A stretch of 1,514 bases of DNA, from the NCBI GenBank assembly GCA_000004985.1, contig GG739397.1; one strand, 5' to 3'. The notes under the pieces were generated by a model. The model was not told the DNA's origin, ran no database searches, and saw nothing but the letters and a program-made list of their open reading frames with translations. Made by a program: the position numbers and the translations under genes. This DNA is from Naegleria gruberi (lineage: Eukaryota). Shown here piece by piece: positions 1-1,514 of this stretch. Every line of letters starts with the position of its first letter. The first letter of the stretch is position 1.

Positions 1-2
1 AT

Positions 3-536
3 TGTTGTTTTACTATTAGAAAGCTAATTCTCAATCAAAAGTTTCCAGTGACCGATCAGAGAAGAAAATCATGTCGTAAAATGCTCCTACTAACATTTGG
101 TCAACTCTACATGGCTCTTCTCAACTTAATTTCAATGAGTTTTGGAGGATTAGCTTTCGCTTACTATATTCCACTTTATCCTATTTGTTTATTCATCCAC
201 AAAATATCCCTCCTCTTATTTTGCATTATTGTAACATTTTCATTTGGTCCTTTGGACTTTGTATTGATTGAATTTAACAGCACTAGCTCACAATCTGTGA
301 CAAGTGTCGAAATTATTCAGAAACGAGATGACATTTCTCAATCTGTGTTGAATTCTGATCAGATTATTAGAAAGGAAGACTTTAGAGAATATGTGAATAG
401 TGAAACCAAATCAAACACTAGTGGAATACCAATCCTAGTTGACCAATCAGAAATTTTCACTGAAATTCCACTTTGGGACAAAATTAGTATATTTTCCTTA
501 TCAAAACCTCAAGAATCAGCCATCTCTCAATTATAA
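3..536 (+). CDS. Partial, 5'-truncated ORF encoding the C-terminal part of a predicted multi-pass membrane protein, possibly the terminal exon of a nematode-type serpentine (7TM, Str-superfamily-like) chemoreceptor. The track lists it as 48..536 from a GTG start.
   Basis: Frame 3 is open from the window edge (tgt tgt ttt act ... gtg acc) to TAA at 534-536. The first in-frame ATG is at 81. No Shine-Dalgarno sequence lies before GTG 48 or ATG 81. The translation has a basic stretch (TDQRRKSCRK) followed by about 39 hydrophobic residues (MLLLTFGQLYMALLNLISMSFGGLAFAYYIPLYPICLFI). A second helix follows (ISLLLFCIIVTFSFGPLDFVLI). The tail is an 88-aa hydrophilic Ser/Thr/Asp/Glu-rich stretch of natural-looking composition. 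The QLY-AL and F-C...P-LD...EF patterns resemble, from memory only, the TM6/TM7 region of nematode Str/Srh/Sri chemoreceptors. An acceptor-like tttccag lies at 42-48. Confidence 0.4.
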   Translation, partial: CCFTIRKLILNQKFPVTDQRRKSCRKMLLLTFGQLYMALLNLISMSFGGLAFAYYIPLYPICLFIHKISLLLFCIIVTFSFGPLDFVLIEFNSTSSQSVTSVEIIQKRDDISQSVLNSDQIIRKEDFREYVNSETKSNTSGIPILVDQSEIFTEIPLWDKISIFSLSKPQESAISQL

Positions 537-862
537 AAATATTATTACAAGAAGCAACAGCTTTTAGTCAATCAACAACTTGAAAAACTTGACATTTCTC
601 AAATTTACAAAAATGCCACGTCGATTCTTAGACATGATTTTTAGCAATTTGGAAAAACAACTTTTTTGTGTTTTAAAGTGCTTTATTTTGAAACAACACA
701 AGAAATCAAACAACAGATAATTAGCTGAAGATTGAGCCAACTTTGAAATCCTTTCAAATAACATCAAGTCTTTATTCAATACATACTTCATAACTCAAAT
801 CCAAACTGGTCAACTGTTTCATTCCAGAAATACTTATTTTCCAATTTTGTGCTAGATCGTGA

Positions 863-1138
863 GATGAAAATTTTAAGGATTTGGCAAAACTAAGAAGTAA
901 GGATGATGGAATTCAATCAATAAGTGAATTGGAGCAATGTCTGACAGAACTTCAAACACACAACAATCAATCTAAATTTATTAACACTCTCAAGAATATA
1001 AAATTATTCGAAACCTTCCAACACTTTATTTCTTACTGCACATACAAAAAACCTTCTTTCTATCAGATTCTTCTATCAGAAACTTTGATCCTCCAAAATA
1101 AACTATTCCACACAAGAGAATCTCGTTTAGTTCTCTGA
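863..1138 (+). CDS. Hypothetical ORF with no in-frame ATG, a candidate internal or terminal exon in a eukaryotic reading. The track lists it as 881..1138 from a TTG start.
   Basis: The frame is open from the stop at 860-862 to TGA at 1136-1138. I checked every codon and found no ATG, so it cannot be a stand-alone gene unless TTG is the start, and there is no properly spaced RBS. The translation (DLAKLRSKDDGIQSISELEQCLTELQTHNNQSKFINTLKNIKLFETFQHFISY...) is not low-complexity. An acceptor-like ttttaag lies at 871-877. AATAAA at 1142-1147 lies 3 nt after the stop. Confidence 0.22.
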   Translation, partial: DENFKDLAKLRSKDDGIQSISELEQCLTELQTHNNQSKFINTLKNIKLFETFQHFISYCTYKKPSFYQILLSETLILQNKLFHTRESRLVL

Positions 1139-1141
1139 GCA

Positions 1142-1147
1142 AATAAA
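1142..1147 (+). terminator. Candidate poly(A) signal hexamer AATAAA, eukaryotic reading only.
   Basis: AATAAA lies 3 nt downstream of the TGA (1136-1138) that closes ORF 863..1138. AATAAA is common in AT-rich DNA and occurs several more times in the window, so this is weak evidence. Confidence 0.15.
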
Positions 1148-1223
1148 TACCTAAACAAAACTGAAGCGGATGAGAGCTACAAAAGTGCTTCATCTTGTCA
1201 TGCACTTTACTAAGTAAATTTGG

Positions 1224-1253
1224 TTGACATCCTAAAATAATCGAGCATGTCAA
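1224..1253. repeat. Inverted repeat TTGACAT (1224-1230) ... ATGTCAA (1247-1253) with a 16-bp spacer. The same heptamer also occurs at 589-595 and 1393-1399.
   Basis: Read directly. TTGACATC occurs at 1224-1231 and 1393-1400, and TTGACAT at 589-595. All three are on the + strand, and the reverse copy is at 1247-1253. None has a TATAAT-like -10 box at a 16-18-bp spacing, so they are not convincing sigma70 promoters. Confidence 0.3.
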
Positions 1254-1405
1254 TACATCAAACAAAATGCCAAAAGTCAATTTACGAAATGTGCACCAAA
1301 TAGAAAAAAATACAAACAAACTAATTAACAATAACACTCTCTCGTTGTGTTTTTTAATTTTTATATTCGAAAGCAAGATTCTTGTTAACATTTTGACATC
1401 AATAA

Positions 1406-1419
1406 CTGTCAAGTGACAG
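1406..1419. promoter_or_regulatory. Perfect 6-2-6 palindrome CTGTCA-ag-TGACAG, a candidate dimeric transcription-factor or operator site immediately upstream of ATG 1425.
   Basis: Read directly from the sequence: ctgtca at 1406-1411, ag at 1412-1413, tgacag at 1414-1419. It ends 5 nt before the ATG. Each arm matches the TGACAG/CTGTCA core bound by TALE homeodomain proteins (MEIS/PREP/TGIF class). The centre reads TCAAGTG (1409-1415), the NK-2 homeodomain consensus T(C/T)AAGTG. Confidence 0.3.
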
Positions 1420-1424
1420 AAATA

Positions 1425-1514
1425 ATGGGAAATAAACATTCTCATAGGAGAGCAAATAGTTTTATTGGAGAAAATGTTGGAGGAGGTGGAAATAAACATG
1501 GTTCGAATAAAAGG
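1425..1514 (+). CDS. N-terminal 30 codons of an unknown protein running off the 3' window edge. The start is MGNKHS, an N-myristoylation-type MGxxxS/T motif, and there is a Gly4 run. An alternative bacterial-style start is the in-frame ATG at 1498.
   Basis: ATG at 1425-1427 sits in the context ataATGg, with A at -3 and G at +4. The nearest in-frame upstream stop is TAA 1386-1388. The frame is open to position 1514 and reads MGNKHSHRRANSFIGENVGGGGNKHGSNKR. An exact 12-nt repeat GGAAATAAACAT occurs at 1428-1439 and 1488-1499, 60 nt apart and in frame, giving GNKH twice. GGAGGAGGTGG at 1479-1489 lies 8-11 nt before the in-frame ATG at 1498. Confidence 0.3.
   Translation, partial: MGNKHSHRRANSFIGENVGGGGNKHGSNKR
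1479..1489 (+). promoter_or_regulatory. Shine-Dalgarno-like purine run GGAGGAGGTGG, a candidate RBS for ATG 1498 in a bacterial reading. It is equally just the Gly-Gly-Gly-Gly codons of the ORF that starts at 1425.
   Basis: GGAGG at 1482-1486 lies 11 nt before ATG 1498-1500, at the long end of functional spacing. The same bases read as gga gga ggt gga in the 1425 frame. Confidence 0.15.

What the first reader, a model, noticed from the sequence alone, without database searches (positions are those of the whole stretch)
3..536. Edge-truncated ORF encoding helices plus a Ser/Thr-rich tail, possibly the end of a serpentine-receptor-like gene
The hydrophilic half (EIIQKRDDISQSVLNSDQIIRKEDFREYVNSETKSNTSGIPILVDQSEIFTEIPLW...) has natural composition, unlike a chance ORF in AT-rich DNA. 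The hydrophobic half has 2-3 helices preceded by a basic loop (RRKSCRK), as in GPCR intracellular loop 3 followed by TM6. The QLYMALL and FCIIVTFSFGPLDFVLIEF segments recall conserved TM6/TM7 residues of nematode Str-superfamily chemoreceptors. That recall is from memory, not alignment. The 88-aa tail is longer than is typical for that family, so the true exon may end earlier. A GTGAAT donor-like site lies at 393-398 and GTATAT at 487-492.
Basis: partly seen in the sequence, partly recalled or inferred. Interest (0 to 1): 0.5.

Follow-up and report, generated by a model that had tools for sequence, protein, structure and literature searches.

The report
Tail end of Naegleria seven-helix receptor gene
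The ORF is real and encodes the last 173 residues (end of helix 5, helices 6 and 7, tail) of an uncharacterised seven-helix, GPCR-shaped membrane protein found only in the amoeba Naegleria, not a nematode chemoreceptor.

The parts
1..15 (+). Last residues of helix 5 (IVVLL, residues 225-229 of the 402-aa protein), read in frame 1, upstream of the frameshift
   Evidence: Frame-1 translation IVVLL matches P0001 and P0003. DNA alignment to L001.
15..16 (+). One-base deletion (CTAATT to CTATT) relative to the intact gene. It shifts the frame 14 bases from the scaffold edge.
   Evidence: It is the only gap in 783 aligned bases against L001. Both P0001 and P0003 read LLIRKL through this point.
15..536 (+). 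Coding sequence for residues 230-402 plus the TAA stop. It covers the C-terminal 173 residues of the seven-helix protein.
   Evidence: 98% identity to P0001. 98.6% DNA identity to L001 1285-2067, with 7 substitutions and no further indel in coding sequence.
81..536 (+). CDS as annotated in RefSeq (XP_002668044.1 / EFC35300.1, NAEGRDRAFT_77045, 151 aa). This model lacks its N-terminal part and starts at the first ATG after the frameshift.
   Evidence: P0002 lies on a 1,514-bp contig and equals the translation of window 81-533 exactly.
33..80 (+). Third inner loop and the cytoplasmic start of helix 6, including the basic cluster QRRKSCRK (57-80) with the invariant Cys249
   Evidence: AlphaFold helix boundaries, coordinate mapping, conservation.
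54..161 (+). Helix 6 (residues 243-278), with the conserved GQ motif (FGQLY at 96-110)
168..242 (+). Helix 7 (residues 281-305)
237..257 (+). Family signature F-S-F-G-P-L-D at the junction of helix 7 and helix 8. F304, G307, P308 and D310 are invariant in 10 sequences.
252..287 (+). Short helix directly after helix 7 (residues 309-320), in the position of GPCR helix 8
   Evidence: AlphaFold secondary structure.
288..533 (+). Disordered, Ser/Thr-rich cytoplasmic tail (pLDDT below 50). It contains the conserved blocks VEIIQKRDDISQ and IIRKEDFR.
426..476 (+). Conserved tail motif IPILVDQSEIFTEIPLW. A related DIFVDIPLND ends the distant paralog P0008/P0013.
   Evidence: Alignments.
537..1424 (.). 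Intergenic spacer with no conserved ORF. It differs from L001 by indels of 5, 1, 2, 1 and 2 bases.
   Evidence: No Rfam or tRNA match.

Best explanation
Window 3-536 is the 3' end of a single-exon Naegleria gruberi gene for a roughly 402-residue seven-helix membrane protein with the GPCR fold. The protein has a glycosylatable N-terminus outside the cell, seven helices, a short eighth helix and a disordered Ser/Thr-rich tail inside. It belongs to a small family seen only in Naegleria that has no Pfam model. The window is an unplaced allelic scaffold cut inside helix 5. It therefore carries only the end of helix 5, inner loop 3, helices 6 and 7, helix 8 and the tail. Most likely mechanism (inferred): the protein is a cell-surface receptor. 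Its variable outer half senses a ligand, and its strictly conserved inner face engages one shared intracellular transducer. That face comprises MVxNK+LLY after helix 1, T-K/R-I-L-Y...F-N-K-x3-W-M-R after helix 3, L-x-R-K-L after helix 5, R-x-x-C-R before helix 6 and FSFGPLD after helix 7. The transducer is most plausibly a heterotrimeric G protein, with the Ser/Thr tail serving desensitisation or trafficking. Shown here: gene identity, seven-helix architecture, GPCR-like fold, family distribution and inner-face conservation. Inferred: receptor function, G-protein coupling and the role of the tail. My confidence is about 0.9 for the identity and architecture and about 0.35 for actual G-protein coupling. 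The single figure given (0.6) is for the statement as a whole: a receptor that signals through its conserved inner face.
Confidence: 0.6

Rival explanations
1. The protein has the seven-helix GPCR-like fold but is not a G-protein-coupled receptor. It could be a Golgi or endosomal seven-helix protein of the TMEM87/GOST type, a transporter-like or scaffold protein, or a receptor that signals through another partner.
Confidence: 0.22
2. The copy in this window is a broken allele. Under this reading the 1-base deletion at position ~15 is real, so this haplotype makes no full-length protein.
For: There is a single 1-base gap against L001 at window 15. P0001 and P0003 are both intact at this point.
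Against: The deletion lies 14 bases from the end of a tiny scaffold, where read quality is lowest, and shortens a two-base A run. The other 522 coding bases have no indel or stop, whereas the 3' spacer (window 891-1514) has 5 indels over 626 aligned columns.
Confidence: 0.15
3. It is a microbial-type (retinal-binding) rhodopsin.
Against: Helix 7 has no conserved lysine. Position 292 reads K/K/K/K/K/R/T/T/R/R and lies near the outer end of the helix. Every Lys conserved at 80% or more is in a cytoplasmic loop. There is no Pfam Bac_rhodopsin hit.
Confidence: 0.02
4. One reading: the end of a nematode Str-superfamily chemoreceptor gene, with an intron starting at 393 or 487.
For: Only the general seven-helix topology, and a proline-containing motif at the end of helix 7.
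Against: The sequence is from Naegleria gruberi. No Pfam 7TM_GPCR_Str, Srh, Sri, Srd or Srj hit, nor any other, appears at E<=10. The exhaustive search finds no metazoan relative. In-frame conservation crosses the 393 site.
Confidence: 0.01

Closest known systems
Fungal class D pheromone receptor Ste2 (PDB 7ad3)
   Different: Only 9% identity in the structural alignment, and no Pfam STE2 hit. The signature motifs differ. Homology is not established.
Class A (rhodopsin-like) GPCRs, e.g. GPR55, GPR174, EP1, OXGR1, P2Y1
   Different: No 7tm_1 hit at E<=10. hhalign probability against bovine rhodopsin is 0.3%. DRY, CWxP and NPxxY are absent. The mid-helix-2 polar residue is Gln/Glu rather than Asp.
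Nematode Str-superfamily chemoreceptors
   Same: Seven-helix topology, membership of a lineage-specific expanded family, and a partly tandem gene arrangement.
   Different: No sequence similarity is detectable, and the organism belongs to a different eukaryotic supergroup.
Candidate receptors already noted in Naegleria: the single cAR-like GPCR (NF0059410) and the 28 seven-helix RGS proteins (PMC9283941)
   Same: Same organism group and same presumed pathway, as seven-helix proteins upstream of an expanded G-alpha set.
   Different: No Dicty_CAR hit and no RGS domain. This family is not named in that paper or in any searchable paper. It may be among the orphan seven-helix proteins found with 7TMRmine, which that paper reports as data not shown.

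Membership tests
Nematode Str superfamily (Pfam 7TM_GPCR_Str/Srh/Sri/Srd/Srj) | Significant match to one of the family HMMs | tested here: not met
   No Pfam family at E<=10 for the 177-aa fragment or for the 402-aa protein. P0001 gave only DUF4834 at E=3.5.
Nematode Str superfamily (Pfam 7TM_GPCR_Str/Srh/Sri/Srd/Srj) | Nematode origin or nematode homologs | tested here: not met
   The window is a Naegleria gruberi scaffold. All named relatives are Naegleria.
GPCR-fold seven-helix receptors (structural superfamily) | Seven membrane helices with the N-terminus outside and the C-terminus inside | tested here: met
   Seven long helices in the AlphaFold model. The positive-inside pattern comes from my loop counts on the P0003 sequence. 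Most members with an N-terminus carry a sequon there.
GPCR-fold seven-helix receptors (structural superfamily) | Helix packing superimposable on solved GPCRs | tested here: met
GPCR-fold seven-helix receptors (structural superfamily) | Catalyses nucleotide exchange on a heterotrimeric G protein | not testable with these tools
   This needs biochemistry. The only support is indirect: the strictly conserved inner face and the Naegleria G-alpha repertoire.
Class A rhodopsin-like GPCR (Pfam 7tm_1) | HMM match, and the DRY, CWxP and NPxxY motifs | tested here: not met
   No Pfam hit. hhalign probability is 0.3% against verified bovine rhodopsin. The motifs are absent in the alignment.
Class D fungal pheromone receptor (Pfam STE2) | HMM match to STE2 | tested here: not met
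   No Pfam hit. The similarity is structural only.
Microbial rhodopsin | Invariant retinal-binding Lys in helix 7 | tested here: not met
   Position 292 varies (K/R/T), and no membrane-embedded conserved Lys exists.
Seven-helix RGS proteins (AtRGS1 type, expanded in Naegleria) | C-terminal RGS domain | tested here: not met
   No Pfam domain in the tail. The tail is predicted to be disordered.
Naegleria 'FSFGPLD' seven-helix family (defined here) | Invariant inner-face residues: K59, Y63, F130, W136, R138, I155, N222, L229, R231, C249, L255, Q259, F304, G307, P308, D310 | tested here: met
   The window encodes R231, C249, L255, Q259, F304, G307, P308 and D310 unchanged. L229 is encoded in frame 1, before the frameshift. 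The remaining residues lie upstream of the scaffold edge.

The most novel reading that the evidence does not exclude
This family may be a previously unrecognised, Heterolobosea-specific class of true G-protein-coupled receptors. It would supply the missing exchange factors for Naegleria's slow-exchanging G-alpha subunits, using its own inner-face motifs (T-K/R-I-L-Y, F-N-K-x3-W-M-R, FSFGPLD) in place of DRY and NPxxY.
Probability: 0.3. Interest if true: 0.65.

Novelty: new variant of a known kind. Interest (0 to 1): 0.4.

Why it matters
Naegleria has a large, lineage-specific set of G-alpha subunits. Some of these exchange nucleotide slowly and so presumably need a receptor. Only one recognisable cAR-like GPCR candidate has been reported in N. 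fowleri (PMC9283941). This small, undescribed seven-helix family has a GPCR-like fold and a strictly conserved cytoplasmic face. It has single orthologs in the pathogen N. fowleri (FDP41_013725) and in N. lovaniensis. It therefore gives concrete candidates for asking which receptors drive G-protein signalling in these amoebae. There is also a practical point. The RefSeq models XP_002668044.1 (151 aa) and XP_002671773.1 (207 aa) are fragments of a roughly 402-aa protein, and several other N. gruberi models of the family start inside or after helix 1. Domain-architecture or seven-helix screens of that proteome would miss the shortest of these.

Tried and rejected
- **Exact-sequence contig look-ups.** Look-ups for P0001, the window ORF, P0010 and P0008 found nothing, because the N. 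gruberi reference DNA is not in that index. I could not read the main-scaffold locus or see why its model stops at 207 aa.
- **AFDB50 fold search.** It was unavailable, so structural relatives in other protists were not surveyed.
- **Single-sequence AlphaFold of the 207-aa model.** It was poor (pLDDT 57) and was not used for fold search.
- **PDB profile search.** It returned only two chance hits at E of 1 or more.
- **Pfam at E<=10.** Across the family members it gave only scattered hits far below threshold.
- **hhalign against bovine rhodopsin.** It aligned 23 columns at 0.3% probability.
- **Minus-strand ORF 1026-1499 (157 aa).** Rejected as a gene. It looks improbable by chance (0.2% of simulations), but non-triplet indels split it into 77-aa and 83-aa pieces in L001.
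- **Rfam and tRNA scans of the window.** Both were empty.
- **Synonymous versus non-synonymous counts, window against L001.** The counts (3 vs 4) are too few to say anything about selection.
- **Locus-tag literature search.** It found no paper.

Full report
**1. The observation**

Frame 3 of the + strand is open from base 3 to 533 and ends with TAA at 534-536. In 2,000 first-order Markov simulations of the window, an open run of 177 codons or more in any frame occurred in 0.05%. The translation has a hydrophobic N-terminal half and a hydrophilic 87-residue tail with 26% Ser+Thr. The basic stretch QRRKSCRK lies at 57-80.

One correction applies. The first four codons (CCFT) are an artefact of a 1-base deletion at position 15/16. 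Bases 1-15 read IVVLL in frame 1, and the true protein continues as IRKLILNQ in frame 3.

**2. What the window is**

- The only close database relative is a Naegleria gruberi "predicted protein" (P0001 = XP_002671773.1, NAEGRDRAFT_73279, 207 aa, 98% identity).
- Its 90% cluster holds two more members. P0002 (XP_002668044.1, NAEGRDRAFT_77045, 151 aa) lies on a contig of exactly 1,514 bp and equals the translation of window 81-533.
- The window is therefore a whole small unplaced scaffold of the N. gruberi assembly. Naegleria is described as mainly a heterozygous diploid (PMC9928731). The scaffold differs from the main-scaffold protein by three residues, so it is most simply an unmerged second haplotype (inference).
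- The third cluster member, P0003, is 402 aa. It comes from an environmental assembly (ENA ERZ929261, contig L001, 3,197 bp).

**3.

- L001 matches window 1-782 at 98.6% identity, with a single gap, the missing A at window 15.
- In L001 the gene is one uninterrupted ORF at 613-1821.
- Upstream of the window's edge it adds an N-terminus with an N-S-T sequon, helices 1-4 and most of helix 5.
- The AlphaFold model was built with an 8-sequence family alignment (pTM 0.65, core pLDDT 80-93). It has helices at 17-50, 57-89, 93-129, 141-180, 190-235, 243-278 and 281-305, a short helix at 309-320, and then a disordered tail.
- Read directly from the sequence, the inner loops carry 4, 7 and 9 Lys+Arg. 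The outer loops carry 0, 4 and 0. This fits an N-terminus-out, C-terminus-in topology.
- Mapped to the window: end of helix 5 = 1-32; inner loop 3 and basic cluster = 33-80; helix 6 = 54-161; helix 7 = 168-242; helix 8 = 252-287; tail = 288-533.

**4. The family**

- An exhaustive HMMER scan of 1.84 billion representative proteins with P0001 gave only 9 hits at E<=0.001. Word-indexed searches with P0003 and with the family profile added a few more.
- Every named member is from Naegleria. N. gruberi has 73279, 73280, 73282, 77904, P0005 and the window copy. N. fowleri has FDP41_013725 and N. lovaniensis has C9374_013567. The rest are unnamed environmental contigs, several from the same sample as L001.
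- Three N. gruberi members share one 304-kb scaffold and have near-consecutive accession numbers.
- On contig L003 the C-terminus of one paralog ends 305 bp upstream of the start of the next. The family is therefore at least partly tandemly duplicated.
- No locus tag of the family appears in any searchable paper.

**5. Membership tests**

- No member hits any Pfam model. This covers the 7TM_GPCR_Str/Srh/Sri/Srd/Srj, 7tm_1, STE2, Dicty_CAR, Bac_rhodopsin and RGS models (at E<=10; at E<=0.01 for the N. fowleri and N. lovaniensis orthologs).
- A family profile finds nothing relevant among PDB sequences.
- hhalign of the family against bovine rhodopsin gives 0.3% probability. The rhodopsin sequence was recalled from memory and then verified as matching PDB 1F88 end to end.
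- The nematode Str idea is not supported, and no known GPCR class can be claimed by sequence.

**6. Fold**

- Foldseek's list is also mostly class A GPCRs, but with weak statistics: best E=0.015 and target-normalised TM-scores of 0.35-0.56.
- The rhodopsin alternative fails its defining test. Helix 7 has no conserved lysine, position 292 reads K/K/K/K/K/R/T/T/R/R, and every well-conserved Lys is in a cytoplasmic loop.

**7. Where conservation lies, and the proposed mechanism**

- In a 10-sequence alignment (22-56% identity to P0003), the invariant residues are K59, Y63, F130, W136, R138, I155, N222, L229, R231, C249, L255, Q259, F304, G307, P308 and D310.
- All 16 invariant columns, and 26 of 27 columns conserved at 90% or more, fall in the predicted cytoplasmic half. 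Mean conservation is 0.56 there against 0.39 in the outer half (Fisher p=6e-7; Mann-Whitney p=1e-10).
- These residues form motifs at the inner ends of the helices: MVxNK+LLY (loop 1 and helix 2), T-K/R-I-L-Y...F-N-K-x3-W-M-R (helix 3 and loop 2), L-N...L-x-R-K-L (helix 5), R-x-x-C-R...G-Q (helix 6) and F-S-F-G-P-L-D (junction of helices 7 and 8).
- The N-terminus and outer loops are variable.
- This is the pattern expected of a receptor family whose members sense different things outside the cell but dock one common partner inside.
- N. fowleri has an expanded G-alpha set that includes slow exchangers, plus arrestin-like genes. Only one recognisable GPCR candidate is known there (PMC9283941). 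A G protein is therefore the most plausible partner. This step is inference, and I put it at about 0.35.

**8. The tail and the proposed introns**

- Against P0004, identity is 59% over residues 316-355, 58% over residues 356-384 and 54% in the membrane core.
- Conservation therefore runs in frame straight across the GTGAAT at 393-398. It includes the motif IPILVDQSEIFTEIPLW (window 426-476). A related DIFVDIPLND ends the distant paralog P0008/P0013. The 393 site is not a splice donor.
- Only the last 18 residues (window 480-533) are specific to this gene. L001 keeps that frame and the same stop. An intron at 487 is therefore unnecessary, although paralog comparison cannot formally exclude it.
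- The tail is predicted to be disordered (pLDDT below 50).

**9. Peculiarities of this copy**

- The 1-base deletion lies 14 bases from the scaffold end. It is the only indel in 536 coding bases, whereas the 3' spacer (window 891-1514) has five. A scaffold-edge sequencing error is more likely than a real null allele, at roughly 85:15.
- Because of this deletion and the truncation, the annotated model starts at the ATG at base 81. The main-scaffold model starts at an internal Met (residue 196 of 402).
- Both RefSeq models are N-terminal truncations. P0005, P0006, P0009 and P0010 also look truncated relative to their longer counterparts.

**10. Verdict**

The ORF is real. It is the 3' end of a gene for a seven-helix, GPCR-fold receptor-like protein of an undescribed Naegleria-restricted family. 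It is a new sequence family within a well-known structural kind. Interest is moderate: it supplies testable receptor candidates for Naegleria G-protein signalling and corrects several gene models, but nothing about it is mechanistically unexpected.

Noticed in passing
window 786-887 (L001 2068-2168): This roughly 102-bp segment of the intergenic spacer is inverted relative to the otherwise 98%-identical contig L001. In the window it is flanked by an imperfect 7-8-base inverted repeat, ACTTCATA (785-792) and TAAGAAGT (891-898). It is either a micro-inversion polymorphism between haplotypes or strains, or an assembly artefact in one of the two.
   Followed up: partly
window 1425-1514 (+); L001 2689-3195: This is the start of the next gene, MGNKHSHRRANSFIGENVGGGGNKHGSNKR. 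It has an MGxxxS N-terminus of the kind that is N-myristoylated. In L001 it continues for at least 169 Ser-rich, low-complexity residues with no Pfam hit.
   Followed up: partly
window 1026-1499 (-): A 157-aa ORF on the minus strand overlaps the start of the downstream gene. An open run of 157 codons or more was seen in 0.2% of simulations. Non-triplet indels split it into 77-aa and 83-aa pieces in L001, so it is not a conserved gene. It probably arises from the strand's A/C-over-T/G skew.
   Followed up: yes
window 15-16: A one-base deletion (CTAATT to CTATT) lies 14 bases from the scaffold edge and frameshifts the receptor ORF. The main-scaffold allele and L001 are both intact at this point.
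   Followed up: partly
RefSeq models XP_002668044.1, XP_002671773.1, XP_002671774.1 and others: Several N. gruberi gene models of this family lack their N-terminal parts. They are 151, 207, 104 and 338 aa, against 311-469 aa for the uninterrupted ORFs of near-identical environmental contigs. Seven-helix screens of the reference proteome would miss the shortest of them.
   Followed up: partly
L003 3-71 and 376-1311: The C-terminus of one family member (identical to the end of P0011) lies 305 bp upstream of the start of another (P0016) on the same strand. This is a direct tandem pair. A fragment with a protein-kinase motif (HNDLKPNN) lies downstream on the opposite strand.
   Followed up: partly
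ENA sample ERZ929261 (loci L001-L003): A sample labelled as a metagenome (ERR1078381, PRJEB11402) holds contigs 97-99% identical to N. gruberi. It evidently holds substantial genome sequence of a closely related Naegleria strain, with more complete ORFs than the reference models.
   Followed up: no
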